Part shown: piece by piece, positions 4,234 to 25,960 of the stretch
Position numbering within the stretch: the stretch's first letter is position 1
Layout: every line of letters starts with the position of its first letter
Source: Candidatus Saccharimonadota bacterium
GTDB lineage: Bacteria; Patescibacteriota; Gracilibacteria; BD1-5; UBA2023
NCBI GenBank assembly: GCA_042852035.1
Contig: BAAFHK010000003.1
Span: forward strand, 224,473 to 256,472
DNA length: 32,000 bases
Reading direction: 5' to 3'
Position numbers and translations under genes: made by a program
The notes under the pieces: model-generated
What the model saw: only the letters and a program-made list of their open reading frames with translations
What the model was told of the DNA's origin: nothing
The model's database searches: none

Positions 4234-4278
4234 CAATTTTTCATATAATCTAGGCAATTTTACTAATAAGTTAAGAAA

Positions 4279-6270: not shown

Positions 6271-6271
6271 T

Positions 6272-9619: not shown

Positions 9620-11066
9620 ACTTTTCTCAATTAGATTTTAAAAGTTTCTGTATATTTTGATCTCAAATATTTAAAGACTGTGTTAATATGCTTAAAGTTC
9701 AGTGGTTAATAGTGTCAAAAACAGAATAGAACTCTCATCTTTTGAGATTAACAATATCTTTTTCACTTATTGCAAACTTTTGCTCTAATCAAGAATTGGT
9801 AATAGGAACAAATAACTCTGCCTGTTCTGGTGGTAATGCAAAAATAAGTGAATAACTCAAATTATTTAGTAAATCCTGTAATTCTCTACTGATACTCTGG
9901 AATATAAACAACATATTTATTTTTTTCTTCCTGTGTTCATTTAGTATTTTCTCTAAAATATCTAACATATGATTTTTACTACCTTGGAGTTCGAGAAAAC
10001 TTTGAAATTCATCACAAGTATAATAATGGCTTCATAAGTTGGGATTATTATGATTTTTACCTGCTCCAATGTGATATAAAATGTTTGTAAGGAAAGATAT
10101 TACTACTCTTCTTTCTTGGGTATTGAATACTGAAAAATCAAATAGATATACTTCTGTTTGTTTCTTTTCTCAACTCATATAGTGTTCTATGTCCAATGTA
10201 AGTTCTTTATAACTTTTTCAATATCCAAAAGTATCTCCTAATCAAAAACTAAAATCTTTCAATTTTGTTAAACTGGTAATATGAGACTGTTTATCTACTT
10301 GAAGATCTTTAAGAAAAGTTTTTAACTCTTGGTCTACTCCATTTGCAAGTTGGAGTATGTCAGAATGAGTAGAAGAAAATAGTTTTTTTCTATCTTCATC
10401 AAGATAAGTAGGAAGTTTCTGGCATCTACTGGTATAATCTAACAAATCATATAAATCCCTATAAGATAATAAAACATTGTCAGGATCTCTATGGTATCTT
10501 TCTATATTGATAACTATAAAACTTCTTATAAGTCCCTCTAATACTTTTGTGTTTGAGGGTCAGAAAGCAGAGTAGTTAAATACTCATTTCAAAGAGGAGA
10601 TATTATAGTTTACCCATTTATTTAAGTCTGTAATATCTTCTACAAGAGACAAAGCAAATAGTGGATTAAAGAAAAATGTTTTATCCATATAAAACCCTCT
10701 ATATTTTTTATTATTTTCAATAGTTTCATTGGAAAATCTAAAAATATCTCAATATCTGCTTAATTTTGGATTATCTATTAAGTATTCTCATAAAAGATTT
10801 AACAAAGGATTTATAAATGAGTTATGGGGATCAATACAAACAAAAGTATCTCCATACTTTGTATTATCTGGTTGAGACTGTTGTAAAATTGAAGATTTTA
10901 TAGTAGAAAATAGGGTAGATACTAAACTGTATGTTTTGCCACTTCAAGATTTTCAGAATATTCATCAATGACCGGATTTTAAAATATTGTAGTTGAGTGA
11001 TAAAAGTGCTTTATCTTCTAGTATATGGGACTTCTGGACTGTCCCTATGGGTATAATGTGAGACAT
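9612..11066 (-). CDS. Type IV coupling protein-like ATPase (VirD4/TraG/TraD family), no obvious N-terminal TM segment
   Basis: 484-aa code-25 ORF. Walker A GKSGSGKT. Walker B and TraG-D_C-like region YYTCDEFQSFLE ... HRKKKINMLFIFQS. Confidence 0.6.
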
Positions 11067-11142
11067 AGTATAGGCTGGTTAAGTGATATGTTATATTGTA
11101 TTAATAAAAATTAAGATTTTTGATTAAATTACATTCAAAAAA

Positions 11143-12003
11143 TCATGAACTAGGTAAAATTATGGCTTTATCCTGAATAGTTCCTGAAATATGGGAAAGT
11201 GGTAAAAATAGCCCTTGTGATAATAGTGCTTCCGGTTGAAGTAGTCTTTTATACTGTGGTATATAATCTAAAAATGTTTTATATTCAGTTATTGAGTAGG
11301 AATTATACAGAGATGCATATAGTCCAAGGTTCTTATACAAAATACTTTTAATATCCCTATATTGCAGGTTATGTGATATATTAAATTGAAATAGAAACAT
11401 GTTCTGGCTTTCAGTAAAAGAACTTATAAAACTCTCCTGCTCCTTTTCATTCATATTTTTACTTTTCTGGGTATATAAATAATCCTTTACTAATGATGAA
11501 TAAGATCCCTTTGAGAATGAAAAGAGTATTTTAATAACTTCATTTTCATTAATGAAGGGCAATATTTCCTGTATGAATGAACTTTTTATAGATGAGGAGG
11601 TTGTAAAGTCTCAGGCTCATAAAGCACCAAGTTTCTTAATTTGTAATACAGAGTGGTTATTAAGTCAGATTTTATAAATATGCTTGTATGATTGTCTTAA
11701 TATGAAATCCCTTTTTATGTCTATTGAAAAACTGATCTTTCAGTTGTAGAGTTTGATAAAAAACTGCATTATATAATTAATACCTTCAAGACTATTAGAA
11801 AATATATATTCATCTATAAAAACTCTATTTTTAGCCTGATAGCAATGTGTTTCCATTCAAAACCATAGATGAGGGAGGTAGAAAGCATTTAAATCATTCT
11901 TGATGGAATTTATAAGGTTTTCTCAAAAGTTGGTTCAAGGATTGATTTTTAAATAGAAAAGTTGATGCTCTGGAAAATATGGAATATTTGAAATTTGAAA
12001 CAT
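11143..12003 (-). CDS. Hypothetical protein (286 aa), first gene of the minus-strand mobilisation operon
   Basis: Code-25 ORF from ATG 12003 to TGA-free stop at 11143. No family recognised. Confidence 0.45.
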
Positions 12004-12088
12004 GGAGATCAAAATTAATAAAACAAATAATCATTATATTAATTTTTAGAAACTATGGATTATGTCATTGTATATTCTTCATTACCTA

Positions 12089-12216
12089 CCCCTGTAATTT
12101 TTAGACTTTCTTTTATTTAAAAGGAAAAGAGCCTAATAGGTCATAACTTAAAACTTATGACCTATTAGGCTCTAACCACACCTTATTTATAGTGGAAAGT
12201 CTAAAAATTACAGGGG
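12089..12216. repeat. Nested perfect palindromes (22-bp outer arms, 19-bp inner hairpin)
   Basis: Outer arms CCCCTGTAATTTTTAGACTTTC (12089-12110) and GAAAGTCTAAAAATTACAGGGG (12195-12216). Inner arms AGAGCCTAATAGGTCATAA (12128-12146) and TTATGACCTATTAGGCTCT (12155-12173). Confidence 0.85.
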
Positions 12217-12230
12217 GGAGATTTTTTTGA
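12212..12230. repeat. att-like core copy B (AGGGGGGAGATTTTTTTGA), internal attP-like junction
   Basis: Identical to copy A over 19 nt. Its left flank AAGTCTAAAAATTACA resembles the left flank of copy C, AACTCTAAAAAAATAGA. Confidence 0.55.
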
Positions 12231-12276
12231 CTAAAGGAAGAAAAAGATATACTTGATATTAATTAATGTAATTATT

Positions 12277-13311
12277 ATGACTAGATTAATAGATGGGGTA
12301 AGGGAGGCAGGATTGGAACAAGGAACAGATGGAAGAGTAAGCAAAGAAAAAGTAAATGAGATGTTAGAGTTTTTTAGTAAAGCATTTTGAGAAGATGCTA
12401 TATTATCTGTATGAGGATTTGATAAGAAATTAGTTGATGCTGTTAAAGAAAATGACAATATCATTAAAAGATTATTACAATCAGAATTAGAAAGAAATTG
12501 TAGATATGAAATGAATATAAGCACTTCTAATGTTAAAGAAGTTATTGAGTGGATTGATATTATCAATAACAACCAAGAAAAAAATGGTTGAATTATCTGA
12601 AAACAATTTAGATTTACTGCTAGTATTATTGAGGCATTACTTGCATTTTTAAAACTCTATCAATCTGCAAATATTGTTAATCAAAATGAAAATGGAAGAG
12701 AAAAAGAAATAATTCTGGTTTTGATTGTTAAGACTTTAAGGTATGCAATAGGTTCTGGAAAGAATGGTTTTACAGGAATAAAGTCTGATTTATTTTCAAA
12801 GTTTGAAGAAGTATTGCATAGGATTTTTGATGATGCTGATATTGAAACAGATGAGAAAACACAACTTATTTTTCAGTGAAGTGCAGGATCTTATGGAAAT
12901 GCACCAAAAAATAATGTATGGATAGAAGATTTTATTAGATCTGTTTCAGGAGATGGCTGAAATGTATTAGTTCATTTTTTAAAAAAATCACAACTCAATA
13001 AAACAGAGTTATTATTATATACTGATAAAAATATTGTAGAAGTTATCATTGAATATTGAAATAACTTTATATTTATTCTTACAAATAGTAGAGAATGGAA
13101 AAAGGAGGCAGTTTTACTTTATAAAACTACTGAAAATATCTTGCAGGATCAAGTTAATAGATGATGAATTGAAAAAATTATTAATCTATTTCTTCAATGA
13201 GGTTTACCAGTTGAAAAGAATGATAATCTAAAAGTTATTAGTAGAAATGATATTTTAGATAGAAAGTTTATTGCAGAAGAAGACTTTGGTAAAATTATTC
13301 AAATTTCTTAA
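12277..13311 (+). CDS. Hypothetical protein (344 aa)
   Basis: Code-25 ORF from ATG 12277 to TAA 13309-13311, with about 12 in-frame TGA codons. No family recognised. Confidence 0.5.
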
Positions 13312-13350
13312 TTTCCTTTTATTAAGGTGGGTATGGGTATTTTTTAAATT

Positions 13351-14904
13351 ATGGACTTACAAAAAAAGATTACAGACACTCTGGATTTACAAATAAATGC
13401 TGATGATATTTTATATTCAAATATTGATAAGTTAGGCTTTTATTTTAAGTCATCAGAACTATTCTGATATTTTAAATCAAAAGATCCATTTCCAGATAAA
13501 GAAGAAGTTATTACTATCTGAGATACAAAGTATAATTTTCTAGTTTATCTTTCAGATAAAGACTTGAATGGATATGATAAAAAACTATGACTAAAAATAG
13601 AATATAGAGGGGAATATTATGAGGTTATAGATATTCTATTTAACATAAAAGAAAGTAGATATTTATGTGTTTTTCATGGAAAGTTGTGGAGGTTTTCAAC
13701 TCTAAAAGAGTTTGGATTTTCAAATCAAATATTAATTGAATTTATATCAAAAAACTTTACAGAGATACAATTAAGAGAAATTCATATTTGTTTAGATGTA
13801 GAAGAGAAAGAAGATTATCTAACTAGGATTAATGAATATATTAAAAACTATGTTCCAAAGGTATTCAATAAAGATACCTACAATTTTAGTAGTTGAAATT
13901 TATGAAGACAAATTGAAATAGGTTTGCCAGACAGAAAGAATAATAAAGAGTTTTTTTATAAAATTTATAATAAGACTTTACAGGCTAGGAAGATGTGAAT
14001 TGATAAAATATATGTTGATTATTGTTTATCTACTGAAAAGAATGTGTTTAGATATGAAATAGAGTTTAGACAAAATATAGCAAAAACCATTAAATTAGAA
14101 GACTTAAAGTTAATCTGACCTATACTAGAAAATAAGAAACAGATGCATGCAGGGAAGTATATTTTGAATGAATGGATTTGTAGAACTCTTATTTCATATT
14201 TTGTAGACAAACAAAAATTTGATTTTGTGTTTTGACAACTCAATATTGAGAATGTGAAACTTAAAAGGTCTGAAAATAGAGCCACAGGTTCAGTTGGCAA
14301 AAGAATAAGTGATTTAAACCTGATAGGACAGCTAAAATCTTTAAGAACCCAAGCAAAGAATATAGAAAGCACTACTTGAATACCCTTGAAGAACAACTTT
14401 GATAAGTTAGATGAAATTATAGGAGAAAGTCAGGATTACAGATATTATATCACTATTTATAGAGGAATTTTCAGGACAATAAAAAACCATTATGAAGAAA
14501 ATGAGGTAAAGGATTTTGATGAACTTTCTGAATTGATAAAGGGGGCTACTACCTATGCACTCAATTTTCTAAAAACTGATTATAACAACTTCTTTAAGAT
14601 TATAAGATGATGAATTAATAGGAATGCTGATAGTGTAATAGAGTTTCTTGCAGATAATGAAAACTCTTTAAGTGAATTGATTTATTTTTATTACTTTTGA
14701 AGATTAAGAGAATGAATATTGTTTGATTTCCTAGATGTTCTAAAAGAATGAAATATGCCATTATTTCAAAAATATTTTGAAGATGATAAGAAGTTAAGAG
14801 AGAGTATTGCAAATAAACAAAAATCAATAAGTATGCTGAATGATGATAGTAATTTATCCTTTGATGATTACTCAAAGTCAGTTTTTAATATATTTTATAA
14901 ATAA
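13351..14904 (+). CDS. Putative replication initiator (Rep_trans / phage CRI-like)
   Basis: 517-aa code-25 ORF. LREIHICLDV and FRYEIEFR resemble the RxDxAxD and RxExE(F)R strands of rolling-circle or phage gene II-type initiators as I recall them. Confidence 0.4.
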
Positions 14905-14915
14905 TCTCATTTTCT

Positions 14916-16814
14916 ATGGAACAATCAAAGAAAAAAAGAGTAGGAATATACATTAGAGTTTCTACATTAGACCAAGCAAAAAAAGGAACTTCTCTTGAAG
15001 ATCAAGAGCAGAGTTTAAAATTATATATACAAGCAAACTCAATAGATGGTTGGGAACTTGCTGAAAATGGAGTTTACAGAGATGATGGAATTAGTGGTTT
15101 TAAGGGTATAGCAGATAGACCTGAATTTGATAGATTAATGAATGATGTGAATGACAAAAGATTAGATATTGTTTTGGTATATAGAATAGATAGACTAGCA
15201 AGAAATACAGAATTACTGCTGAATACTGTTAAGAAATTTAAAGTAAAGTGAGTGCAGTTTGTGAGTATGAGTGATAGAATTGATACAGATACAGCAAGTG
15301 GGAAGATGCTACTTGCTATACTAGGTGCTATGGCTGAAATGGAAAGGAACTTGATTTATGAAAGGACATATGCTTGAAAGATTAGAAAATTAAGTATGGG
15401 TTATGCTTCCTGATGATGATTTGATTTACCACTTGGTTATAAAAAATGAGAAGATGGGAAGATAATGATTGATGAGCCATATAAAGAGTTAATCCAAGAG
15501 ATTTTTGATCTTTGTACTGGGGAGAAGCACTTTACACCAAAAGAAATTGCTGCTGAATTATCATCAAGGGAAGAAACTACTTGGTGGGATAAAAAAATGG
15601 CAAAACTTAAAAAGAAACAAGTTAAAACAGGTGTCTGGAATGCAGATACAGTAAGAAAGATACTTCTCAATCCTATTTATAAATGAGTATACTATTTTTG
15701 AAAAACAAGAAAAGTGCTTGCAGATAATGAAGAAGATGAAATTACTGTAAAAGTTCCAGAAGAAGAATGGCTACCAGTTCCTATGCCTTGTGGTTGAATT
15801 ATTACAGAGAAACAATGGGAAGATGCTAAATATCAAATTCAAAAGATTAATAAAATTAATAGAGGAAGATGAAGAAGCCATATCTTTACAGGTCTAATTA
15901 AGTGTGGGTTTGACTGAATGAGTTATATTTGTTATAGGTCAAAACAGAAGAAAGTTGAATACTTTTATTATAGATGTGGTGGAACAAATGCGTCTAAAAA
16001 TGAGAATAAAAGAAAAGATACTGATGTAGGAAATATTGATATGCCTTTGTGTAATAATCTACAAGTTCCTGAATTAGAACTTTATAACTACTGTATTGAT
16101 ATTATTACAAGGTTCATAGAAGAACCAGAAGCACTATATAAACAAAAAATAGGGAATGATGAGGAGTTTAAGAAACAAAAAAAGATCCTTGAAACAAAAA
16201 TAGAGGAAGATAAGTTAAAAATTAAAGAACTTGAAGTTACTATAACATCATTGTATTATCAGAAATCAAAAGATAAAATAAATGCTGATAACATACAAAA
16301 TGTGCTTGATACATACACACAAGATAAAGAAGCAGCATTGAAAAGACTTGAAAATAATGAAAAAGATTTGCTAAATTCAGAAAATCAGTTAAATTCTGGC
16401 AAGCAAATGAAACAGTTTGCTGAGACTTACAAAGATAAACTTGCAAATCTTACAGAGGAACAAGGAACAGAACTTATTAGGTTGTTAGTTGATAGGATTG
16501 AAGTTAAAGGAACGTTAATTACAGTATTCTTTAAGTTCAAACCACACCCAGAGAGTTTTACACATAGTCAAACTCTAAAAAAAAACTCTAAAAAAATAGA
16601 GGGGGGAGATTTTACAACAAGTTCTACACCAAACAAGCAGTCTCTCCAACATATATGCAGCCGTAGTTCAGTTGGATTAGAACGCCTCCCTGCGAAGGAG
16701 GAGGTCACAGGTTCGAGCCCTGCTGGTTGCACCATTTCAACTCATAGAAGACTCTTCAGTACCATTTTTTGGCTCTGGGGAGCTTTTTTTAGGTTCGTAC
16801 TCATCTATACTTAA
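14916..16814 (+). CDS. Large serine recombinase LSR-A. The integrated-state ORF has no stop before the att core and runs through tRNA-Arg
   Basis: VGIYIRVSTLDQ (catalytic Ser), YRIDRLARN, recombinase domain, Zn ribbon CGFD-G-...YYRCGG, long coiled coil. The first code-25 stop is TAA at 16812-16814. The native end is probably just after core C (about 16613). Confidence 0.85.
16600..16613. repeat. att-like core copy C (AGGGGGGAGATTTT), putative attR of element A, inside the LSR-A ORF
   Basis: 14-nt identity with copies A and B, 44 nt upstream of tRNA-Arg. Confidence 0.55.
16657..16734 (+). tRNA. tRNA-Arg (anticodon GCG as folded by hand), CCA encoded
   Basis: Acceptor GCAGCCG/TGGTTGC, D arm GTTC..GAAC, anticodon stem CCTCC/GGAGG with loop CTGCGAA, T loop TTCGAGC, discriminator A, CCA. 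Confidence 0.7.
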
Positions 16815-18356
16815 TCAAACCTTGGAAGGTTGGAACCGATAGTTAATTGCTATTACTGGTCTTAAGTTCTCACGTGTAACCACTATATCTCTCACAAGAA
16901 TATTGATAATTTGCTTTTTTTGAGAAAAGGAGAGATTCTCAATTTTTGTCTCGATTGTTTTAGAAAATTCCTCAAGAGAGATTTTCATCTCTTCAGCTTG
17001 TACTATCCCATCAAGCTTCTCATCGAGATCCTGTATCTGTTTTTCACAAGCTTCTCTATCCTGAGATATTTTTGCAAGGACTTTTTCATATTTCTCTTCG
17101 GAGAGCATACCTTTCCTGTAATCTAATTCAGTTGATAGATCAGCATCTTCGAGCCTTTCAAGTTCTATCTGACGACGTTCACGCTCTTTAGTATATGTGT
17201 CGTAATCTCTACTGTCGACAGATTGCTTACGGAAGATATCATATAATTCCTGAGGTCTTTTAATAAAAGTCTCAATATGTTCCCATACCAATTCCTCTAG
17301 ACTCAATCAAGGAATATCAAAGTTTTTGTAATACTTTCCTCGGATAGTTCGAGCTGGACGACGGTAACTTATTCCACCTTTTGTTCGACTCACTCATACA
17401 AATTTCCGACCAGTTTCAAGATCGGTTACTTTTCTGGAGAGCAAATATTCTACGTTTCCACCTCATCTGACAGGATCCTCCTCACTCTCTTTGATGAGAT
17501 TTTTTGCAAGCTCGAAGGTGAGATCGTCTATAATCCTTGGCACCTCGATCGGTACTTGTGTCTCATATCACTTCTCGTCCTTGCTCTTGTACACAGCTCT
17601 CCCAGTATAAGCACCTCTTTCGAGAATATTTCTAATATCAGTATGATACCAAATTTTAGCTTTATTTTCTCTCGTATTCCCCTTTCCCTTATCGACCTTG
17701 TTTTCTGTAAGGATATTAGCGATTTCTTGATAGGTTTTCCCAGATAAGAATTCTGAGAAAATTCTCTTCACCCAAATTGCTTCTTCTGGAATAACAATTA
17801 ATGATCTTCATTCACGCTTATCACTTTTATCCTTAATATAACCAAATGGAGTCGTACTTAGTACATAATTCCCTAACCTTGCAGAGGCAAGCTTTCATTC
17901 TTTCGTTCTTGTCTTTATAGTTTCCCTCTCAAATTCTGCTAAAGCTCAAAATATCTGAAATGTAAGTTTACCGATGGGACCAGTAAAATCTATATTCTCT
18001 TTCAGAGAGAAAAATCAAACCTTATTTTTTTGTAAGATTTCAAATGTTGATAGAAGATGGGAGAGGTTCCGAGATAGTCTATCTATTTTCCACACAGCAA
18101 CCATATCAAACTTCCCAAGCATAGCGTCTTCTATCATTTTTTTATACTGAGGTCTATTCAGATCAGCACCAGTCTTTCCTAGGTCCTGATACACCCATTC
18201 TGGATTATGTATCCAGTTATTGTGTTTTCCTCGAAAAACAATCATTTCCTGTAATCACTGAAGTTGCATTTCTGGTCAATAGCCATTCTTTTGTTCTTCA
18301 GTCGATACACGGATATAAAATGCAACTCGATGGGGTTTATCACTAATTGTAAGCAT
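16677..18356 (-). CDS. Large serine recombinase LSR-B. Code-25 reading continues past TGA at 16817-16815 into the antisense of tRNA-Arg
   Basis: VAFYIRVSTEEQ, WKIDRLSRN, G-ALAEFERETI, coiled-coil C-terminus. Internal TGA codons sit at conserved Gly positions. Under code 25 the first stop is TAA at 16679-16677. The homology-like end (…INYRFQPSKV) is at 16818. Confidence 0.8.
16752..16797. repeat. Direct repeat, left copy (putative attL of element B)
   Basis: TGGCTCTGGGGAGCTTTTTTTAGGTTCG (16770-16797) matches 23347-23374 at 27 of 28 nt. The upstream CTCTTCAGT is also shared. Contains a weak GCTC/GAGC hairpin plus a T7 run. Confidence 0.65.
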
Positions 18357-18381
18357 ATAAACATAGTTAATGTATGCTTAC
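18349..18381. promoter_or_regulatory. 9-bp inverted repeat spanning the LSR-B start codon (possible operator)
   Basis: GTAAGCATA (18349-18357) and TATGCTTAC (18373-18381). The ATG is at 18356-18354. Confidence 0.3.
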
Positions 18382-18459
18382 ATAATATTTTTCATTAAGG
18401 AAAAGTAAAGAAAATATCTATCAGAAGATTAATAAAAATAGACTATACCAAGATATAAT

Positions 18460-18805
18460 CTACTTTCCCAAAATGCAATCAAGTATTCTATGGTCAATAA
18501 TATCCGCTTCTAACTTAGATGGACTATCGAAATTAGCAATTACAGTAATAGGCACTCTCCGCTTTCATTGAGGTGGTATTTTTCAGATTATGATTGAATT
18601 ATTTTGCTTTTCCATCTAAGGAGTAACGTTCAGATTATTGTCAAAGTTACCCCCCAGTAACAATAAAATCGTAATCTTTTTTCAGTGGTTGTACAATTTG
18701 TACCACTCAGATATCGTATTTCTCCTGATCTAGATCAGCAAATATATTTTTTGAAATTACATATCTCTGATACAAATACTTATTCAATATAAGTTTGCCA
18801 ATATG
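18460..18805 (-). pseudogene. Possible decayed gene, broken at a G6 run and by an in-frame TAG
   Basis: Minus-strand reading ...KNIFADLDQEKYDIGVVQIVQPLKKDYDFIVTGG stops at the GGGGGG run (18650-18655). A 1-nt shift continues as NFDNNLNVTP, then TAG, then MEKQNNSIIIGKIPPQGKRRVPITVIANFDSPSKLEADIIDHRILDCILGK. Confidence 0.25.
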
Positions 18806-18829
18806 CTAATTATTTATATGATACAGAGG

Positions 18830-19022
18830 CTAAAATGTATCCGTAATCTATAACCTGCGAAAAAGAAAAGGGCAACTTATTGTTGTCCCCCTTTTCACTT
18901 CTTCGGAGGTTGTAAGGATACGTTTTAGCGAACACTGGACACTTAGGTTGCCCTTTTGTTTGCTAAAACGTTCCACCCATTCCCAAAGATACTTTTAGCG
19001 TTATATTTTTATAACGCTTTTT
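18830..19022 (+). promoter_or_regulatory. Structured leader with mutually exclusive helices, ending in a terminator 3 nt before an ATG (attenuator or riboswitch-like)
   Basis: Helix 18830-18842:18916-28 (13 bp). Helix 18921-34:18957-70 (14 bp), which shares CGTTTTAG with the first. GCTAAAA (18962-68) can also pair with TTTTAGC (18993-99). Terminator AGCGTTAT/ATAACGCT (18997-19018) plus a T run. Confidence 0.5.
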
Positions 19023-19024
19023 CT

Positions 19025-19345
19025 ATGGAAAAATCCGATAAATTAGGTTGATATCTCTTCTGGATATTACTTGGTGTTATTCTTATATCACTTAACTGGG
19101 ACCGTATAAAAAGCTTACAATCTGAAACGTGGCAAGGATTTTTTTATCCCAGAGGTTGTCTGTGGTGTCAGAGTGAGTATATCTATAGTCGTCCTTATAA
19201 ATCCCGTGAAGAGTGTCTTGCTTGGTGATCTCAACTCAAAGCACAGAGGAATATTCCAGAAGATAAATTCGAGTGTTGAAAGAATTGTAAGCCACCCAAC
19301 ACAAAGGATTGACTCTATGTATGTGAGAGTACCGTAGATTATTAA
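19025..19345 (+). CDS. Small membrane-anchored Cys-rich protein (106 aa)
   Basis: Code-25 ORF from ATG 19025 to TAA 19343-19345. TM-like YLFWILLGVILISL followed by eight Cys residues. Confidence 0.45.
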
Positions 19346-19360
19346 ATAACCTTATAAGAT

Positions 19361-19666
19361 ATGTTAAATCCATCAGACCCCCACTATATAGAACATAATA
19401 AGAGACTCCGAGAAGCTGAAAAAGCCTGAAATGTCCAATACCTCACAAATCCATCAGAAATAGATATACGAATAGCAGATTGGGAAGACCAATTTCTCAA
19501 GGATTTCCCAGAGTTAAACTTTTTAGATAATCGGGAGGCTATGCTTCTGAAGTTTCGGGAAGTGGCTCAATATGATCCTTTATCATCTCAAGGCAAGGAT
19601 CGATTTATCGAAGAACACTGATTTCTTCCCGAGCAGATTTTCTCTTCAGATATGGAGTCCCAGTAA
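19361..19666 (+). CDS. Hypothetical protein (101 aa under code 25; 86 aa if the TGA at 19619 terminated)
   Basis: ATG 19361. In-frame TGA at 19619-19621, TAA at 19664-19666. The code-25 tail overlaps the convergent gene by 62 nt. Confidence 0.4.
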
Positions 19667-20117
19667 TACTGCCGTATTCTCCAGATTCAAGGACTTTAGC
19701 CTTCTTTTCAATAGATTTTAGTATCTCAAAAGCTCTCTTGGGACTAATATCGAGAATGATATTTTGAGGACCATTATTGATAGTTACTTTATCTTTGTCT
19801 ATACGCCACTCTGGATCTGTATGCTTCAAAAATTGGAGAGAGACTTGTATATCTCCTTCAGCAAGTGCTTTATTGATATTTTGTTTTGCGAGAAGGCGAG
19901 AATAGACTCATTTTGTGTTGCGAATTTCCTCTCGAAACTCTGGATTTTTATCCAGAAAACGGTAAAAGGCAGATACCGAGAAACCGCAAGCAAAAGAGGA
20001 TTCTTCGATTGTATGTCATAGTGAAATATACTCCTTGAATTTCGAGAGATTAGAAGGAGTTATTTTTGAGGGTCTGCCAATTTTATTATGTGTTTTAGTT
20101 GTATAGATCTTGGGCAT
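19605..20117 (-). CDS. Phage terminase small subunit-like HTH protein
   Basis: 170-aa code-25 ORF. The N-terminus GRPSKITPSNLSKFKEYISL-G-HTIEESSFACGFSVSAFYRFLDKNPEFREEI matches the GRPxKYxP...G.T...A...vS..T...W....peF pattern of small terminase or HTH_23-type proteins, from memory. Confidence 0.5.
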
Positions 20118-20140
20118 AGTCAGATTATCTTATTAAAAGT

Positions 20141-21169
20141 CTATGTTACTATTCTAAAATTAAAATTCACAGCATCTATGGAGTAAATAGTGATATCCTC
20201 ACATCTTACCTTATTGTCACGAAACAAAGCTATATTATATCACTGTGGATTCAAAGAACTATCGTATATTAAACCATCATATCATCACAAAACTTTTAAA
20301 AATTCAGCAATATATTGCGTTGGGAGATAATCTAACTCTTTGTCATCTTTTAGATTTGGCTTTGAAAACTCATTACTCATTCTTGAAATGAAGTGAATAT
20401 AAGGATAATAGTCTTCTATTTTTTCCCTCTCTGAAAGACGCATAAAATCAATAGAATCTTTCCTCAGATCAACTAAAATCAAATCCTCTAGTACTATGAA
20501 TTTCCCAGTGCATATTTGATCATAATGGGAGGCTCTAGTTTCATAGAATGTAGTAACAACATCACCTGATAGATATAAATAGGGTATTCCTATTGGGTTA
20601 ATTCTTCAGCCTTTAGAGGATACTTTATTTATAGGAGGCATACCCAAATCTTGGATATTATATAAATTTCAAGATCTACTAATCCTGCTTCTATACAATA
20701 AGTTATCAGCATCAATGGTAGTAGTGTGATAGTTTATTAAAATATATTCTATCTCTTCTAAATCTAACGCATTTGTTATATGGAATCGATTAGTATTTTT
20801 TAATTCATTGGTAAAGTTATCCCATCATTTAGTTAGGTGTATTTTTTGAGATGGAACTAATTTAGCATTGTCAAAAATTGGATATTTATGGGTGATAAAT
20901 ATGTCACTAAGTAATCTATTACTGCCTCATCAGGGATTAAAAATGCTTCAAAATTCTCAAAGTATAGAATCTATAGTTCAGATTGAACTCTCAATATCTT
21001 CAATATGTAGTTTTGAAAGACCCTCAAACATATGACCAAAGTCCACATCGCTAATATCACAAACGTGAACATTATTACTCTCGCAATAATCACACTCACC
21101 CTGTTGATTTAAAGAGCTAATGTACGCTTTAACATATGGACTATTGAAACAATTTTTACAACAAAGCAT
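20141..21169 (-). CDS. RES domain protein with N-terminal Cys-rich (Zn-ribbon-like) domain; predicted NAD-targeting toxin or effector
   Basis: 342-aa code-25 ORF. CCKNCF...CDYCES at the N-terminus. RES signature GGRINPIGIPYLYLSGDVVTTFYETR and C-terminal G-G-YDGLIYDSSLNPQ-G-YNIALF. The start lies 3 nt after the stop of the upstream gene. Confidence 0.75.
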
Positions 21170-21172
21170 ATA

Positions 21173-22126
21173 CTATACTAAACTAACCATTAATTCTATA
21201 TGATTCATAATCGCAAGCTTCTTTATAGAACCAAGTCAAGGGAAGTGACCAGTATTGTATAAATCTATAAATTCTTTAATGCCTTGTGTTTCAATTCCAG
21301 TATTCTTGGACCATTCTACTAATTTTGAGTTTGCCTCATTAAATTTTCAGGCAACATCAGATCTATCTCAATTTGAATCTGAAACAAAATGCCTTACCAT
21401 TACTTTCCCCGAAGTATCTTTATACGAAATATGTATAGCTACTGCAAAAGGCATAAATCCAGCTTCTGAATAGTTATCTCAAATGGTAGCAAAATCTCAA
21501 AATCCGACAAATTGTTCCGTCTTATAAAATAGATGCTCTTCGGTAAAAGCACTTGATTTGTCTTTATAATCAGAGTTCCTATTTTGTGATTCGAAATAAT
21601 CTGCTAGTGAAACCCTGGAAGATTCTATAAACTCTCTATAATAACGACGATTGCTGTTTGTTTTATCGAAATTAATTACGTTATATTTAATTTTTGCAAT
21701 CGAACTAAGATCATCTTGAAGTGACTTAATATTATCAGCATCTAAAACACTATTATGAATTAAGGATAACCCGCTTCAAACAGGTCCAGTTGTCACTAAA
21801 CAGCCTTTAATTTCGCTTGCTTTTAGAAAGTAGTTATCGTTTATGATAAGTCATATTTGAAAATTACTATAATCTCATAGCTCGGTAGTAACTAACTCCA
21901 TTATTTGTTCATACTTATCTTGAGCATCGCCATATTCAGGATTTAGAACAATAGTAAAATTAACGTTACTCTCTTTGAGTTTCCGTAGAGTTATATCAAA
22001 TGTTGTCGAAAACTTAACGGGCTCAATTATTGGTGAAACCTTTTCATTATTCAGGGCTAAAAAAGAGCTCATATCTCTAAGTGCCATTAATTCGAATTGC
22101 TTTCATCTTAGATACGGAAAATACAT
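21173..22126 (-). CDS. T4 Beta-protein / sce7725-like family protein (function unknown)
   Basis: 317-aa code-25 ORF. The N-terminus MYFPYLR-G-KQFELMALRDM and FVGF-G-DFATI-G-DNYS match my recollection of that family. 2-nt gap to the upstream gene. Confidence 0.45.
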
Positions 22127-22128
22127 AT

Positions 22129-23058
22129 TTATGAAACTTTAGTATTTAAATACTGATTCAGCTTTTGAAGCTCTTTGCTGTCTAGCCCTATGTTATAGCA
22201 AGAATACCTTAATGCCTCAGGTGCTGTCTTTAAGTAATTTTGATAACTTACATTCTTTTTGCGTTCTTTTAGCCTTTCGAAAGCTAGTTTCTGAAATTTG
22301 GTTACTTCTATATTCTTAGCAAGATCTAAGCAATAACGGAATTGTTTAGTATTTGGTACATCAACCTTAGTATTGAAATAGTTCTCGATTAAATTCAAAT
22401 ATTCATCTTTTCTCAAGGTTTTAAATATTGTGTCGTGATCAAACCTTGTCATATCCACAATGGCTTCTTGTACAGTCTTGAGAGTATTTCTATTTGTAAA
22501 TTCAATGATTCCTATATTAGTATCCTTATACTCTTCGATGATTTTTGCTAATAACTTTTTACTACTGACTATATAAACTTTATTTGCGAATTTTCTATAG
22601 TCATTTATTTGTTTTTCTAGCTTATCAAGTGTGTCTAATTCTGTCTTTACTTCAAATATCTTTACCTCACCATTGAGTAAGACGAAATCAGCAATTGAGG
22701 ATCATATAGTAAACTCATCAAATACTACAGTATGACTTGTCTTATATTTTGATAATTGACTATGTAAGAGTTTATTCTTATAAAAATACTCATTTCTATA
22801 ATTCCTTAGCAAGTACTCATATAGACTCTCTACAATGTCCTTATATGTAGAACCTTCTTGAATATCAAAATGTTTACTGATTCGATACCTAAACGCCGAA
22901 AAATCACCATCTATAAATTTTTTGATAGACGATGCCGAAAGAAGGGAGGCAATACTGATGAGAGCGTCTTTTTGTAGATCTTGTAACATATTGATTTTCC
23001 TCATTCTAATCGAATTGCTCGATAAAACAACATTTTTACTATACATAAAATTGCACAT
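22129..23058 (-). CDS. PD-(D/E)xK nuclease-fold protein (sce7726-like); start codon uncertain
   Basis: Code-25 ORF. YRNEYFYKNKLL then VVFDEFTI-G-SSIADFVLLNGEVKIFEVKTELD (a D...EVK motif). Candidate starts at 23058, 23046 and further in-frame Met codons downstream. Confidence 0.5.
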
Positions 23059-23094
23059 TCTGTTATATCTTGATTAAAGTAACTATTTTCCTCT

Positions 23095-23316
23095 CTATAC
23101 TATAACACCCTCTCTTTCCACCCTCTCAAGAAATGATCAGACTGAGTTCTTCGGTGTTTGGACTCGGATTGATTCTTGATATTCCTTAAGCTTCTTTACT
23201 TCCTCACGGTGCATTGTCACGTACTGACTTTTCCATCGATTTCCTATTTGCAACTTACGTAACTTGAAATACAGAGGAAGGACAAAGTAACGTTCTGAGT
23301 TTTTACCACCATACAT
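23095..23316 (-). CDS. Small basic ORF (73 aa) abutting the right repeat; in frame with LSR-B across a reconstituted attP
   Basis: ATG 23316 to TAG 23097-23095. The frame stays open upstream through the repeat. Unusually long stop-free stretch for this composition. Confidence 0.35.
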
Positions 23317-23327
23317 ATTGGAATTAG

Positions 23328-23374
23328 CTCTTCAGTCGTCACTTTGTGGCTCTGGAGAGCTTTTTTTAGGTTCG
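23328..23374. repeat. Direct repeat, right copy (putative attR of element B)
   Basis: TGGCTCTGGAGAGCTTTTTTTAGGTTCG (23347-23374) plus the upstream CTCTTCAGT. See 16752-16797. Confidence 0.65.
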
Positions 23375-23707
23375 CCCACTGCTTCATTTCCGACTATCTT
23401 TGATTGGTCGAACCTTTGTTTTTCTTAGCATTTGATAAACCTTAACAATTCTTAACATCTTTCCATATATTTCATGTAACTGATATACCTGGAGAAATGA
23501 CTTATTTGAACTACGCATACAGTTGAAATTTTAGCCAACAGCTACTGCTTATTTTCTTGATGTAAATTTCTATTTCATATAAAATCAATACTTCAGATTT
23601 TTCAAAAATATATCGGAAATCTTAATTTTTACACCATACAATTTAGTTTAGCTTTGAATTATATACAGTATACATATAATTTATCTATCCCCTAAACAAG
23701 AAGTTTT

Positions 23708-25960
23708 ATGCTACAATCTCTTGCGTGAAATCTCCAACTTGAACCAGAAAATTGATCACAAAGAATCTGGCAATTCCTACATCAATATCTGTCACAATTA
23801 GGATCCAATGGTATATTAGGTTATAAGATACCATCATTGTGAAATGAGCAAGAATGGGTTCCTTCAATTATTTTTAGATCAAAAGAACATGGGATAATAT
23901 TAATTGAAATCGCAAAAGATAAACTAGAATCAGTCAATGATAGTGATTATTGGTTTTATAAAACATGACATACTCACACTAGAAATAAAGATAATGTTTT
24001 AGATACATTTAAATGAGAAGTTGAAAATAGACTAAGAAAGAGTAATCAACTATATGATAGAAAAAACAAGATGTTCTTAGTTGAAATTAAAACAATATTA
24101 ATTCTTCCTTTTAATGATAAAGTAGATGAAAAATCACTCTTAACAGAATTATATCCAGATTGGCTCTGTGATAAAGTTCTCTACTCAGATAACTATGAAG
24201 ATGAATTAAAATCACTGCTTTGAGAAAAAGATTTAAATTATGGTGAAGATCAATTGAGTATGATAGATGCATTGCTGGAATGAACAGAATCATTTATTTC
24301 AAAAAATGATTTTATTCCCAATGATCCTAAAACAAAAAATGATTTTATAAAAGAATCTCTCAATGAAACTTTTAGATTAGACCAAACTCAGAGATCTCTA
24401 GCCATGCAAATTCCTAGTTGACCACAACGAATTAGATGACTTGCAGGTACTTGAAAGACAGTGATTTTGTGCATGAAAACAGCCCTAGTACATAAGGATC
24501 ATAAAGATTTTAAAGTACTGTTTTTATTTAATACTCAAAGCATGTACTGACAAATTCGAGATAAGATAACAAAGTATTATTTAAACGAGAAAAAAAGTAT
24601 ACCAGACTGGAATAATGTTCATATTTTACATGCCTGGTGATGAAGATCTCGTGAGTGATTATATTATAGGCTCTGCAATGAGTTGAATATTAAACCAAAA
24701 ACCCTTTTGGATATTCCAAGATGATTTGATGGTACTGAAGTAATTTATAAAGACATTTTAAAATATAAGGATCAACTCAAGCAAGAATATGATATGGTTT
24801 TAATTGATGAGGCTCAAGATTTTCCACAGGAAGTATTTGAGACACTGTTCTATATAACGAAGTGAGATCCTTGAAAGAAAAAAATTATTTGGGCGTACGA
24901 TGAATTTCAAACATTAAAAGATATTAAAATCAAACAACCTGAACAATTATTCTGAAGAGACAATGATGGCAACCCAAATATGCCAAACAATATATTAGAT
25001 TGACAGTATCTTTGATGAATAAAAAAGGACTTCGTTTTACCAAATTCATATAGAAACCCACGCCTCACTTTAATGGTGGCTCATGGAATATGAATGTGAT
25101 TATATAGCGAAAAAGATATAATTCCTATGGAAGATAGGGAATCCTGGATTGCTCGATGATATACTGTCATTGAGCCCGCACAAAAGAATAACTTCTCTGC
25201 AAATGATCAAGTGGTGGTTGAAAGAGAAGACACTTATAGTAAGAATATTTTAGAGAGATTGTTATCTGAAAAATGAAATCATAATGATACATTAATACAA
25301 TTTCATGATGCTGATAATCTAATTTCCGAATTAACTTATGTTAGCTCAGAAATTAAGAAGCTAATTACAGAAGACGGTGTTCCTCCTGAAGAAATAATTG
25401 TTATTACACTTCGAACATCAACATCCAAAAAAGATCTAGAAATGCTAAGATCACTACTTAATCAAAATGGTATAAGTGCGATTACGCCTTGATATGTGGA
25501 ATCTTCAAATATGTTTAAGGAACCATGATCTGTAACCTTGGTTACGCCATTTAGAGCAAAAGGAAATGAGGCAAATATCGTTTTTGTAATAAATTCTCAA
25601 CAAGTTATAGCAAATGCAACTTATGTTGCAAGAGGATCATTTTTTGTATCTGTAACTAGATCCCGATGATGGTGTTATATTTCATGAAATGGAGATTTTA
25701 TAGATAAATTATGACTCGAAATTAATAAAATTATTAGTGATTATCCAAAATTCAAATTTTCATTTCCTAATCCTGAAAGCCTTCAGAGGAGACTTAATCT
25801 TATCAACAATTCAGATAAGGCGGAAAAGGTGGATGAACAAATTGATTTATTATTCTCTGACGAGGTCTCAAAAAGTGTTTTAATGGAAAGATTACTTAAA
25901 GATGAGGCTTTTAAAAAAGTTTATAATGAATATCAAGCAAAAAACAGCAATGATGTTTAG
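23708..25960 (+). CDS. Fused PD-(D/E)xK (NERD-like) nuclease and SF1 UvrD-like helicase
   Basis: 750-aa code-25 ORF. N-terminal HGIILIEIAKDK nuclease-like core. Walker A GLAGT-G-KT, Walker B MVLIDEAQDF, late SF1 motifs TPFRAKGNEANIVFV and VSVTRSR. Confidence 0.7.

What the first reader, a model, noticed from the sequence alone, without database searches (positions are those of the whole stretch)
16657..23374. Two convergent serine recombinase ORFs read through the same tRNA gene, and the element B recombinase may be split by integration
LSR-B (minus strand) reaches a TGA at 16817-16815, exactly where the protein looks finished. Under code 25 it continues for about 46 codons antisense through tRNA-Arg and overlaps the LSR-A read-through (16677-16814). 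Element B is flanked by 28-nt near-identical direct repeats. Joining its ends as in a circle places the 73-codon ORF 23095-23316 in frame with LSR-B across the repeat, with CCA at 16772-70 equivalent to 23349-47 and an open frame down to the ATG at 23316. That stop-free stretch of about 100 codons is unlikely by chance in DNA this AT-rich. Excision may therefore rebuild a longer recombinase.
Basis: partly seen in the sequence, partly recalled or inferred. Interest (0 to 1): 0.75.

Follow-up and report, generated by a model that had tools for sequence, protein, structure and literature searches.

The report
Integrase gene split by its integration
A small mobile island in a Gracilibacteria-type genome inserts at the end of a tRNA-Arg gene using a crossover site inside its own serine-integrase gene, so insertion detaches the enzyme's last ~72 amino acids and excision re-attaches them; this layout was previously described only for archaeal tyrosine integrases.

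Summary
The window uses genetic code 25 (TGA = Gly). LSR-A (14916-16814, +) and LSR-B (18356-16677, -) are both large serine recombinases whose ORFs run through tRNA-Arg(GCG) 16657-16734. Relatives of LSR-B occur in two states. Integrated copies always end antisense in a tRNA gene. Three closed-circle contigs of 5-12 kb with no tRNA carry an uninterrupted 604-622-aa LSR whose extra C-terminal module is homologous to the window's 73-codon ORF. Two matched sets (circle L002 versus integrated L025; both junctions on L023) place the crossover in a 5-6-nt identity (ATGGT(G), antisense of the tRNA's CCA end). In the window these are 16730-16735 and 23307-23312, not the 28-nt repeat. Element B is therefore 6,577 nt, and excision would rebuild a 612-aa ORF. 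The 28-nt repeat is the 3' half of a terminator-like hairpin plus T-run encoded inside the LSR linker. Its right-hand copy belongs to a 39-codon relic of an older LSR gene. The tails read through the tRNA are flank-encoded by-products. The module's function, possibly directionality control, is inferred only. I found no report of a serine recombinase with attP inside its own ORF.

The parts
16657..16734 (+). tRNA-Arg(GCG), the integration target. Both LSR ORFs read through it. It looks chimeric: the 5' 53 nt are of one allele type, and the T-loop to 3' end are of another.
   Evidence: ARAGORN; allele comparison
16730..16735 (.). attL crossover identity CACCAT: the last 5 nt of the tRNA (including CCA) plus 1 nt. 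This is the left boundary of element B.
   Evidence: Identical hexamer at 23307-23312. Placed by homology with the matched sets L002/L025 (ATGGT) and L023 (ATGGTG).
16736..23312 (.). Element B, an integrative island of 6,577 nt: LSR-B, two small + strand ORFs, and a minus-strand cargo operon headed by the detached module.
16677..18356 (-). LSR-B ORF as it stands when integrated (559 codons, TAA at 16679-16677). Codons 1 to about 510 (16827-18356) form the folded LSR body. Codons from about 511 to 540 are element-encoded linker. The last 18 codons (16680-16733) are antisense tRNA.
   Evidence: Pfam PF00239 at 2.5e-36 and PF07508 at 1.5e-16; homologues; AF2 model of the fused relative P0008
16752..16790 (+). 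Element-borne terminator-like hairpin (stem 16752-16759 / 16775-16782) plus T7 run (16784-16790), 17 nt after the tRNA 3' end. On the minus strand it encodes the linker peptide EPKKSSPEP.
   Evidence: Terminator scan; folds with z = -3.8; 17-site comparison
23095..23316 (-). Detached C-terminal module of LSR-B (73-codon ORF). The module proper is 23098-23306. The ATG at 23316-23314 lies just outside the element, in the relic. It is the first ORF of the cargo operon.
   Evidence: Homology to the C-termini of circle-borne LSRs. 7 synonymous versus 1 nonsynonymous codon changes in its first 45 codons against L008. AF2 beta-hairpin plus helix, pLDDT 83-94.
23307..23312 (.). attR crossover identity CACCAT, the right boundary of element B.
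23313..23424 (-). Relic of the 3' end of an older, P0007-type LSR gene (matches P0007 residues 507-545). It holds a spacer, a hairpin (23326-23361) with T7 run (23361-23367), and 17 further codons.
   Evidence: tblastn 79% identity over 39 aa, E = 4.5e-15; the same kind of relic in L021/L022, L008, P0246 and L015
19605..23073 (-). Cargo operon: sce7726-family (22129-23073), sce7725-family (21173-22138), RES / HEPN_RES_NTD1 protein (20141-21172) and an unknown 170-aa protein (19605-20129).
   Evidence: Pfam; NCBIfam NF033831 at 8e-82 and NF033832 at 3e-43
14916..16814 (+). LSR-A ORF (632 codons). The part conserved with its relatives ends at 16648. Codons beyond that (16649-16814, through the tRNA in sense) are flank-encoded.
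   Evidence: Pfam; P0121 diverges after ...PNKQSLQ; DNA similarity to L020 stops at 16648

Best explanation
**What it is.** Element B (about 16736-23312) is a small integrative island with defence-type cargo. It belongs to a Gracilibacteria/Patescibacteria lineage whose large serine recombinase (LSR) carries its attP site inside its own reading frame. The site lies in a disordered linker between the complete LSR body (about 510 aa) and a C-terminal module of about 72 aa.

**What is shown.**
- In the free circular form, the gene is one ORF of about 612 aa.
- Recombination takes place in a 5-6-bp identity (ATGGT(G) on the LSR strand) at the CCA end of a tRNA gene. Here the target is tRNA-Arg(GCG).
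- Integration leaves the tRNA intact.
- Integration cuts the LSR gene in two. The body stays at attL. It reads on into the antisense tRNA until the first TAA, because TGA is a sense codon in this organism.
- The module ends up 6.6 kb away at attR, at the head of the cargo operon.
- The LSR linker also encodes, on the opposite strand, a hairpin plus U-run. After integration this sits 15-17 nt downstream of the tRNA.
- The second copy of this hairpin at the right end of element B belongs to a relic of an earlier LSR gene.

**What is inferred.**
- The hairpin replaces the tRNA's native terminator, which integration displaces.
- The relic is left from repeated use of the same tRNA site. A new element arriving next to an old one would fuse the old LSR to the new module, which would explain why the relic is in frame.
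- Excision would rebuild the long ORF.
- Because the enzyme differs between the two states, the module probably biases or controls the direction of recombination or attP recognition.

**LSR-A.** It follows the same principle on the other side of the tRNA. Its conserved sequence ends 8 nt before the tRNA, and its stop codon is supplied by the flank. No detachable module could be shown for it.
For: - Code 25 is in use. Both proteins are LSRs.
- Of the 120 listed LSR-B homologues, 27 end with the antisense tRNA-Arg tail ...GATSRARTCDLLLRREAF and 14 end with tails from other tRNAs. Three carry a clear module fusion and at least six more distant ones a module-like fusion.
- The three clear fusions lie on contigs with terminal overlaps of 30, 27 and 30 nt and no tRNA. 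None of 8 other whole contigs has such an overlap.
- Every integrated copy examined abuts a tRNA in antisense.
- Matched set 1: circle L002 versus integrated L025. The two alignment blocks overlap by exactly ATGGT at the tRNA-Met CCA end. The attR of L025/L024 has no hairpin copy.
- Matched set 2: L023 at tRNA-Arg. Only ATGGTG is shared between attL and attR. Its attR flank is a native host terminator.
- The module stays in frame with the LSR across the junction in 5 of 5 independent elements: window, L008, L017+L021, L023 and L025.
- Joining the window's ends gives a 612-aa ORF.
- The module is under purifying selection, 7 synonymous to 1 nonsynonymous codon change. It is predicted to fold, with pLDDT 83-94.
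- The linker is kept open by compensating frameshifts: the same DNA is read as SDDGRAN or SGTEELN, at a constant length of 68 nt.
- The hairpin was examined at 17 sites. It starts 15-17 nt after CCA, has 11-14 bp and 5-7 U, and is more stable on the tRNA-sense strand in 14 of 17. Stems show compensatory changes.
- LSR 3' relics occur at attR in the window, L021/22, L008 and P0246, and at the otherwise empty site L015.
- The AF2 model of the fused P0008 shows a complete LSR body to about residue 512, followed by a low-confidence linker.
Against: - No circular form or empty site of element B itself was found. The window's crossover position is inferred by homology from relatives at 47-57% protein identity.
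- Circularity of L001-L003 rests on k-mer-sized terminal overlaps only. Read-level support was not available.
- The module has no recognisable fold or family, so its role in recombination is conjecture.
- In the full-length model the module is poorly predicted.
- Engineered Int-RDF fusions favour excision rather than integration (PMC5737554). A simple 'module = RDF' reading therefore does not fit an episome-specific fusion.
- Searches for the module in JGI metagenome contigs and IMG/VR found nothing, so the sample is small.
- Integration next to a resident LSR 3' end, which the relics imply, is not typical LSR behaviour.
Confidence: 0.8

Rival explanations
1. The 28-35-nt direct repeats are the att duplication. 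The crossover lies inside the repeat, in the loop or centre of the dyad-symmetric hairpin, and element B runs from about 16770 to 23374.
For: - The hairpin is an imperfect inverted repeat of the size of an LSR att site (about 36-42 bp). It is conserved with compensatory changes in attL, attP and relic sites.
- The window and L008 share sequence up to the outer edge of the right-hand core copy.
- The frame is also preserved across this junction.
Against: - In both matched sets (L002/L025 and L023) attR carries no hairpin or core copy. Identity between the junctions is only ATGGT(G) at the tRNA end.
- Three further attR-type ORFs of the L002 subfamily (P0245, P0247, P0248) have unrelated sequence right up to G|RNRMKGY.
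- Outside the right-hand core copy the flank continues as an LSR 3' coding relic of variable length: 17, 30 or 0-1 codons. A simple att duplication does not explain this.
- G·U pairs make the hairpin more stable on the tRNA-sense strand in 14 of 17 sites. This points to an RNA signal rather than a protein-binding site.
Confidence: 0.1
2. Coincidence. The 73-codon ORF is an independent small gene, the first gene of the cargo operon. LSR-B is complete as it stands, and the in-frame relation and read-through are by-products of a code with only two stop codons.
For: - The ORF has its own ATG in the window and is annotated as a separate hypothetical protein (P0241).
- Free-standing versions exist on other contigs (P0242-P0249).
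- Open frames through a tRNA are expected by chance under code 25.
Against: - The same sequence is the C-terminus of uninterrupted LSR ORFs in three circular contigs from different samples and lineages, and in at least six distant relatives.
- The in-frame relation holds in 5 of 5 independent integrated elements.
- L008 has no in-frame ATG at the module start.
- Compensating frameshifts keep the linker open.
- The window's ATG lies outside the element, in the relic.
Confidence: 0.05
3. The architecture is real but functionally neutral for recombination. attP simply lies in a tolerant linker. The module acts on something else, such as cargo regulation or replication and maintenance of the episome, and the two LSR isoforms recombine equally well. 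Directionality, if any, is set by a separate factor.
For: - The LSR body upstream of attP is complete.
- The tail acquired on integration is dispensable (L012).
- The module has no similarity to known RDFs or DNA-binding folds.
- Small unannotated ORFs that could be RDFs exist in the element (18947-19345, 19358-19666).
Against: - Fusion to the LSR is maintained across lineages at 29% module identity. The frame is preserved by compensating indels, which argues that the covalent link itself is selected.
- C-terminal extensions next to DBD2 have been proposed as a way to control LSR directionality (PMC12286644), and C-terminal fusion of an RDF has been shown to do so (PMC5737554).
Confidence: 0.3

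Closest known systems
SSV-type (type I, 'suicidal') tyrosine integrases of archaeal viruses and plasmids (SSV1, pTN3, pT26-2)
   Same: - attP lies inside the integrase ORF, and the att sequence is translated as part of the protein.
- Integration at a tRNA gene partitions the gene into two parts at opposite ends of the element, and excision or tandem integration rebuilds it.
- Hybrid genes and relics arise from successive integrations (PMC7253208).
   Different: - Those enzymes are tyrosine recombinases, stated to be 'so far restricted to archaea' (PMC7253208).
- Their split gives two inactive pseudogenes, with the catalytic Tyr in Int(C).
- Here the enzyme is a bacterial serine recombinase. 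The split is near the 3' end, so the whole catalytic and DNA-binding body stays intact and only a ~72-aa module is detached.
- The attP/attB identity is 5-6 nt, not a long tRNA segment.
Integration-dependent immunity of mycobacteriophages (BPs, Brujita, MabB/MabN prophages)
   Same: - attP lies inside a coding sequence, so integration changes the C-terminus of a regulatory protein.
- The 3' remnant is left at attR.
- Tandem prophages place the remnant of one gene in frame with the body of another (PMC9934374, PMC4557955).
   Different: - There the split gene is the repressor, the recombinase is a tyrosine integrase, and the removed piece is a short ssrA-like degradation tag.
- Here the split gene is the recombinase itself, and the removed piece is a conserved, apparently folded module of about 72 aa.
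Canonical large serine integrases with separate RDFs (phiC31, Bxb1, TP901-1, SPbeta SprA), and engineered Int-RDF fusions
   Same: - Same domain series: resolvase catalytic domain, recombinase domain, beta-ribbon DBD2 with a long coiled coil.
- Minimal identity at the crossover.
- A polypeptide attached to the C-terminus next to DBD2 can set directionality (PMC5737554, PMC12286644).
   Different: - In the canonical systems attP lies outside the int ORF, the enzyme is the same in both states, and direction is set by a separate RDF protein.
- LSR-B gives no Zn_ribbon_recom hit.
- Here the C-terminal appendage is present only when the element is excised.
tRNA-targeting genomic islands (Islander-type, tyrosine integrases)
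   Same: - Site-specific integration at the 3' end of a tRNA gene.
- The element carries sequence that restores what integration displaces.
- Repeated use of one tRNA gives arrays and relics (PMC4383910).
   Different: - Those islands restore the 3' part of the tRNA itself through a long identity block.
- Here the tRNA is untouched (crossover at CCA) and what appears to be restored is its terminator hairpin, encoded antisense inside the LSR linker.

Membership tests
Large serine recombinase (serine integrase) family | N-terminal resolvase-type catalytic domain with the serine nucleophile | tested here: met
   PF00239 at E = 2.5e-36 (LSR-B) and 2.9e-38 (LSR-A). The R-x-S-T-x-x-Q motif (YIRVSTEEQ) is present, with S, R and Q invariant in a 71-sequence alignment. 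PDB sequence hits include TP901-1 integrase and SPbeta integrase.
Large serine recombinase (serine integrase) family | Recombinase domain (DBD1) after the long alpha-E helix | tested here: met
   PF07508 at E = 1.5e-16 (LSR-B) and 1.6e-14 (LSR-A). In the AF2 model of the fused relative P0008, helix 128-162 is followed by a confident domain at 175-296.
Large serine recombinase (serine integrase) family | Zinc-ribbon domain (DBD2) with an inserted coiled coil | tested here: inconclusive
   LSR-A has a weak PF13408 hit (24.7 bits, cut-off 25.3). LSR-B has none. The model of P0008 shows a beta-ribbon (312-351), a long coiled coil (384-469) and closing strands (490-508). The fold is therefore present, but metal binding is doubtful.
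Large serine recombinase (serine integrase) family | Short att sites with identity limited to a few bp at the crossover | tested here: met
   attL, attR and attP share only ATGGT (L002/L025) or ATGGTG (L023 and the window). The exact cleavage dinucleotide was not determined.
Large serine recombinase (serine integrase) family | Catalyses attP x attB integration | not testable with these tools
   Activity is only inferred, from finding the same element type both as circles and integrated.
SSV-type 'suicidal' integrases | attP lies within the integrase ORF, and integration partitions the gene | tested here: met
   Fused ORFs in circles versus split ORFs in integrated copies.
SSV-type 'suicidal' integrases | Tyrosine recombinase fold and chemistry | tested here: not met
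   The enzyme has serine recombinase domains. It is analogous in layout, not homologous.
SSV-type 'suicidal' integrases | Both halves are inactive pseudogenes after integration | tested here: not met
   The attL part retains all LSR domains up to about residue 510. Activity itself was not tested.
Integration-dependent immunity systems | attP lies inside the repressor gene, and integration removes a C-terminal ssrA-like degradation tag | tested here: not met
   The split gene is the recombinase. The detached piece is a conserved module of about 72 aa with a predicted beta-hairpin plus helix, not a short tag.
Intrinsic (rho-independent) terminator | G+C-containing hairpin immediately followed by a U-run, downstream of a gene on its sense strand | tested here: met
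   Scan hits at 16771-16784 and 23348-23361. Folds have z-scores of -3.2 to -7.2. Across 17 sites the hairpin has 11-14 bp and 5-7 U and starts 15-17 nt after the tRNA CCA. Termination activity was not tested.
Recombination directionality factor (for the module) | Small element-encoded protein that binds the LSR DBD2/coiled-coil region and switches direction | not testable with these tools
   There is no sequence or fold similarity to anything. No interaction prediction with error estimates was available.

The most novel reading that the evidence does not exclude
The family is a self-contained, one-gene integration/excision switch. Because attP lies inside the ORF, the cell makes a long LSR (body plus module) only from the free circle, and a short LSR plus a possibly separately expressed module only from the integrated copy. 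The module would act as a built-in directionality or attP-recognition determinant, so the topological state of the element sets the recombinase isoform and hence the permitted reaction, with no separate RDF gene. The same linker would also double, on the other strand, as a portable terminator for the target tRNA.
Probability: 0.3. Interest if true: 0.8.

Novelty: new variant of a known kind. Interest (0 to 1): 0.66.

Why it matters
How large serine integrases control direction, especially the many that have no identifiable RDF, is an open question for both phage biology and genome engineering. A natural family in which the recombinase gains or loses a C-terminal module according to whether it is integrated gives a directly testable case: two defined proteins and four short sites.

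It also extends the 'attP inside the integrase gene' layout from archaeal tyrosine integrases to bacterial serine integrases. Here the layout is non-destructive, because the catalytic body survives.

It shows one stretch of DNA serving three roles: protein linker, recombination site and, on the opposite strand, a terminator-like signal for the tRNA.

It identifies a set of very small (5-12 kb) circular or integrative defence-gene carriers in Gracilibacteria and other Patescibacteria, whose mobile elements are poorly known.

For annotation, it explains why LSR genes in code-25 genomes appear to run antisense through tRNA genes.

Tried and rejected
- **TGA at 16817 as a stop or recoding site.** Rejected. 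LSR-B has 11 other in-frame TGAs, and homologues continue with a conserved linker.
- **Crossover in the 28-nt repeat.** I favoured this at first because of its dyad symmetry. I rejected it after the matched sets L002/L025 and L023.
- **Co-variation of spacer type with LSR lineage or tRNA allele.** Inconclusive. All combinations occur.
- **Same-host pairs with and without an element, using the flank beyond the tRNA.** None found. Flanks are at most 77-88% identical, apart from the same locus re-fetched (L004/L018, L006/L016) or identical across two samples (L004/L005, L008/L009).
- **RNAalifold on a MAFFT alignment of the hairpins.** It predicted no pairs because the stems were out of register. 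I replaced it with per-site folding.
- **Module survey with the search for related loci.** Closer alignments matched 87 pattern stretches in the metagenome contigs (in both scans) and 39 in IMG/VR, but none was confirmed by tblastn.
- **Function of the module.** No Pfam hit. No Foldseek hit in PDB or BFVD, with best E-values about 0.5-3. My guess from the sequence pattern that it resembles an AP2/arm-type DNA-binding domain was not supported.
- **A second module or LSR relic further right in the window, marking the far end of the older element.** None found.
- **Left end of element A and a possible detachable module for LSR-A.** Not resolved. L020 starts inside the element and shares nothing beyond 16648.
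- **Literature.** Searches for a serine recombinase with attP inside its own ORF found nothing. This covers only the open-access library held here.

Full report
**1. The observation**

The window is AT-rich and uses genetic code 25. Reading TGA as sense raises the summed length of stop-to-stop ORFs of at least 100 aa from 3,960 to 14,755 aa. TGA falls at positions where Gly fits a motif I recalled as typical of LSRs (for example NPIYKGVYYFGK in LSR-A). ARAGORN calls a 'tRNA-SeC(tca)' at 29729-29807, which is probably the tRNA that decodes UGA. The window's 73-aa ORF is identical to a protein from a 'Candidatus Altimarinota' MAG in the Patescibacteria group. DNA matches to the att region come only from Gracilibacteria and Peribacteria-labelled MAGs.

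- tRNA-Arg(GCG) lies at 16657-16734 on the + strand.
- LSR-B runs on the minus strand from 18356. It has a TGA at 16817-16815 and reads 46 more codons to a TAA at 16679-16677.
- LSR-A runs from 14916 to a TAA at 16812-16814.
- The direct repeat is 16763-16797 / 23340-23374 (35 nt, 91% identity). Both copies encode EPKKSSPEP in the same minus-strand frame.
- The minus-strand frame 23424-23095 is open, with an ATG at 23316.

Both proteins are large serine recombinases (PF00239 and PF07508; PDB sequence matches).

**2. What the relatives show**

A search with the full read-through form of LSR-B returned 360 proteins. Those at 47-57% identity are 553-563 aa long. They end with ...EPKKSSPEP-(about 12 aa)-YGATSRARTCDLLLRREAF, which is the antisense translation of tRNA-Arg.

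Every integrated copy I fetched abuts a tRNA-Arg(GCG) in antisense (L004-L009, L011-L014, L016-L019, L023). One subfamily abuts tRNA-Met instead (L025). Of the 120 listed homologues, 27 carry the tRNA-Arg tail and 14 carry tails typical of other tRNAs read in antisense.

Three proteins are longer: P0008 (616 aa), P0037 (622 aa) and P0039 (604 aa). In place of the tRNA tail they carry a segment homologous to the window's 73-codon ORF. For example, P0008 has YGATTSKGYFQMRLYSKMYKRQLGNRWKTYFDLLSRDEV where the window has YGGKNSERYFVLPLYFKLRKLQIGNRWKSQYVTMHREEV.

Their contigs come from three different sequencing runs: L001 (12,245 nt), L002 (5,056 nt) and L003 (6,074 nt). These contigs have terminal direct overlaps of 30, 27 and 30 nt, as expected for closed cycles in a k = 31 assembly. 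They contain no tRNA, and they pass through the att region without a break. None of eight other whole contigs has such an overlap. At least six more distant family members also carry module-like fusions (P0050, P0053, P0056, P0057, P0069, P0094).

**3. Where the crossover is**

I first suspected the repeat itself, because it is half of a dyad-symmetric sequence. Two matched sets show otherwise.

- *Set 1.* Circle L002 aligns with the integrated element in L025 in two blocks. L002 178-1957 matches L025 7397-9176 (LSR side, 82%). L002 1953-2532 matches L025 4584-5182 (module side, 72%). The blocks overlap by exactly ATGGT, the antisense of the CCA end of a tRNA-Met plus one base. The attR side of L025, and of L024 from the same assembly, is plain host DNA: a second tRNA-Met and 48 nt, with no copy of the hairpin or core.
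- *Set 2.* L023 carries both junctions of a tRNA-Arg element on one contig. Its attL reads ...GACT|ATGGTG|CAACC(tRNA). Its attR reads (host terminator)...TTTTC|ATGGTG|AAAAC...(module). Only the hexamer is shared.

Three more attR-type ORFs (P0245, P0247, P0248) have unrelated sequence right up to the G|RNRMKGY start of the module.

In the window the same hexamer (CACCAT on the + strand) is at 16730-16735 and 23307-23312. Element B is therefore 6,577 nt. Joining its ends gives a single 612-aa ORF, within the 604-622 aa range of the circle-borne genes.

The module is in the LSR frame across the junction in all five independent integrated elements examined: the window, L008, L017+L021, L023 and L025.

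**4. What the 28-nt repeat is**

On the tRNA-sense strand, the region between the CCA end and the conserved GGTTCG folds into a hairpin followed by a U-run. This holds in every site type: attL, attP inside the circles' ORFs, and the relic sites. Z-scores range from -3.2 to -7.2, and the terminator scan hits both window copies.

Across 17 distinct sites the stem starts 15-17 nt after CCA, has 11-14 bp and is followed by 5-7 U. It shows compensatory changes between lineages (L002/L025, L007/L023, L017). In 14 of 17 sites it is more stable on the tRNA-sense strand than on the LSR-sense strand, because of G·U pairs.

The peptide EPKKSSPEP is its antisense translation. The spacer is conserved as DNA, not as peptide: GTGACGACTGAAGAGCTAAT is read as SDDGRAN, while GTGGGACTGAAGAGCTTAAT is read as SGTEELN. 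These two have compensating -1/+1 indels, and the total length stays at 68 nt in nearly all sites.

In L023 the displaced host flank carries a native hairpin plus T-run about 13 nt from the crossover. The simplest reading is therefore that the element brings a replacement terminator for the tRNA. This is an inference; no termination assay was possible.

**5. Why there is a second copy at the right end**

The sequence just outside the crossover at attR (23313-23424, minus strand) matches residues 507-545 of P0007, another LSR of this family (79% identity over 39 aa, E = 4.5e-15). It comprises 17 codons of LSR C-terminus, then the core and spacer, and nothing further upstream.

The same kind of relic precedes the module elsewhere:
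- L021/L022: 30 codons plus core and spacer.
- L008: core and spacer only.
- P0246.

The apparently empty site L015 is also a decayed relic next to the tRNA.

This fits repeated use of the same tRNA end. A new element arriving between the tRNA and a resident element would fuse the resident LSR to the new module, and later deletion would leave a 3' stump. A comparable scenario is described for archaeal SSV-type integrases and for tandem mycobacterial prophages (PMC7253208, PMC9934374).

The window's ATG at 23316 lies in the relic, outside the element. L008 has no ATG at that position.

**6. The protein**

An AF2 model of the natural fusion P0008, built on a 71-sequence alignment, gives a confident and complete LSR body. 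It has the catalytic domain, helix E (128-162), the recombinase domain, a beta-ribbon (312-351), a long coiled coil (384-469) and closing strands (490-508). A low-confidence stretch follows from residue 516. The att site and hairpin are thus encoded in a linker that imposes little constraint on the protein.

Modelled alone, the module is a beta-hairpin plus helix with pLDDT 83-94 over residues 11-50. It has no significant match in PDB, BFVD or Pfam. Between the window and L008, its first 45 codons differ at 8 codons, 7 of them synonymous.

The tail that the LSR acquires on integration is not conserved by selection. L012 has a TAA right after the core. Three of the six tRNA frames are fully open under code 25 and a fourth runs 18 codons.

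**7. LSR-A**

LSR-A has few relatives. P0121 is about 95% identical once the W/G translation difference is set aside. It diverges after ...PNKQSLQ, and P0122 and P0123 diverge at the same point. DNA similarity between the window and L020 stops at 16648, 8 nt before the tRNA.

The boundary of element A therefore also lies inside the 3' end of its LSR ORF. The 55-codon tail through the tRNA is flank-encoded. I could not find the other end of element A or any detachable module, so whether a longer LSR-A is rebuilt on excision remains open.

**8. Mechanism and comparison**

*Shown:* two states of one element type, a split versus fused gene, the position of the crossover, and the hairpin.

*Inferred:* the hairpin acts as a terminator, the relics arise from tandem integration, and the module influences the reaction.

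The closest known layout is the SSV-type 'suicidal' integrase, described as restricted to archaea and belonging to the tyrosine family (PMC7253208). In that case both halves are dead after integration. Here the enzyme body survives.

Integration-dependent immunity splits a repressor rather than the recombinase (PMC4557955, PMC9934374).

For LSRs, directionality normally needs a separate RDF. Fusing an RDF to the C-terminus flips direction (PMC5737554). Natural C-terminal extensions have also been suggested as an alternative solution (PMC12286644). A module that is attached only in the excised state is therefore a plausible natural switch, but a simple RDF role does not fit its polarity.

I found no report of a serine recombinase with attP inside its own ORF, within the limits of the library.

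**9. Verdict**

The finding is a new variant of a known kind and merits experimental follow-up.

Noticed in passing
window 16657-16734: The tRNA-Arg(GCG) looks chimeric. Its 5' 53 nt are identical to the allele in L004/L006/L008. Its T-loop, 3' T-stem strand and position 66 match the allele in L007/L013. This gives an A49·C65 mismatch and a G7·U66 pair. It may have been acquired with element B by homologous exchange within the tRNA.
   Followed up: partly
window 2155-2232, 16657-23312, 29729-29807: In L008, L004 and L007 the order is tRNA-Cys ... element ... tRNA-Arg followed by tRNA(UCA) on the same strand. In the window the block 'tRNA-Arg + element B' is inverted, with element A at one edge and about 6 kb of other genes (including a UvrD-like helicase, 23696-25960) at the other. 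This suggests a recombinase-mediated inversion or further insertions.
   Followed up: no
window 29729-29807 (-): ARAGORN calls a tRNA-SeC with anticodon tca. In a code-25 genome this is most likely the tRNA-Gly(UCA) that reads UGA. The same gene sits next to tRNA-Arg in L004 and L007.
   Followed up: no
window 12089-12216: Nested palindromes: 36-nt arms at 83% complementarity, enclosing a 22-nt perfect-like palindrome at 12128-12173. They sit exactly where the related contig L020 begins. They may be a replication origin or a hairpin end of element A.
   Followed up: no
window 4270-16648: Element A carries a methyltransferase-like protein (666 aa) and a helicase-like protein (870 aa), which I guessed from the sequence to be a type III-like restriction-modification pair, plus a 488-aa protein that looks like an ATPase and two conserved unknown proteins shared with L020. 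These were read from the translated ORFs only and were not run against any family library. Its left end was not located.
   Followed up: no
window 20141-23073; L001, L003, L004, L006, L021, L022, L008: Members of this element family are minimal carriers of defence-type cargo:
- window: sce7725/sce7726 plus a RES toxin-like protein
- L001, L006: type I restriction-modification
- L004: N6_N4_Mtase plus ResIII (the same pair also occurs in L021/L022)
- L021/L022: Shedu SduA, plus Fic in L022
- L003: DUF4411 / Peptidase_M78
- L008: AAA plus S8 protease

   Followed up: partly
L012:2597-2627: In this integrated copy the LSR ORF stops at a TAA directly after the core (EPKKSSPEP*). The tRNA-antisense tail is therefore dispensable, and this copy could no longer rebuild a fused protein without reversion.
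   Followed up: yes
P0023 (578 aa), P0047, P0058, P0067, P0068: Some family members have long C-terminal tails that are neither antisense tRNA nor recognisably module-like (for example P0023 ...YGAPTTEQSWKIVSYLLENSDEIYENL...). They may be other integration sites, other modules, or tandem junctions.
   Followed up: no
attP sequences of L001-L003 and reconstructed attP of the window, L023, L021, L025: A motif AAAGGTTAC (AACGTTAC in the window) lies 19 nt from the TGG of the crossover on the module side in all lineages, even where modules share only about 29% identity. It encodes the conserved KGY, but it could also be a recombinase-binding motif of the P' arm.
   Followed up: no
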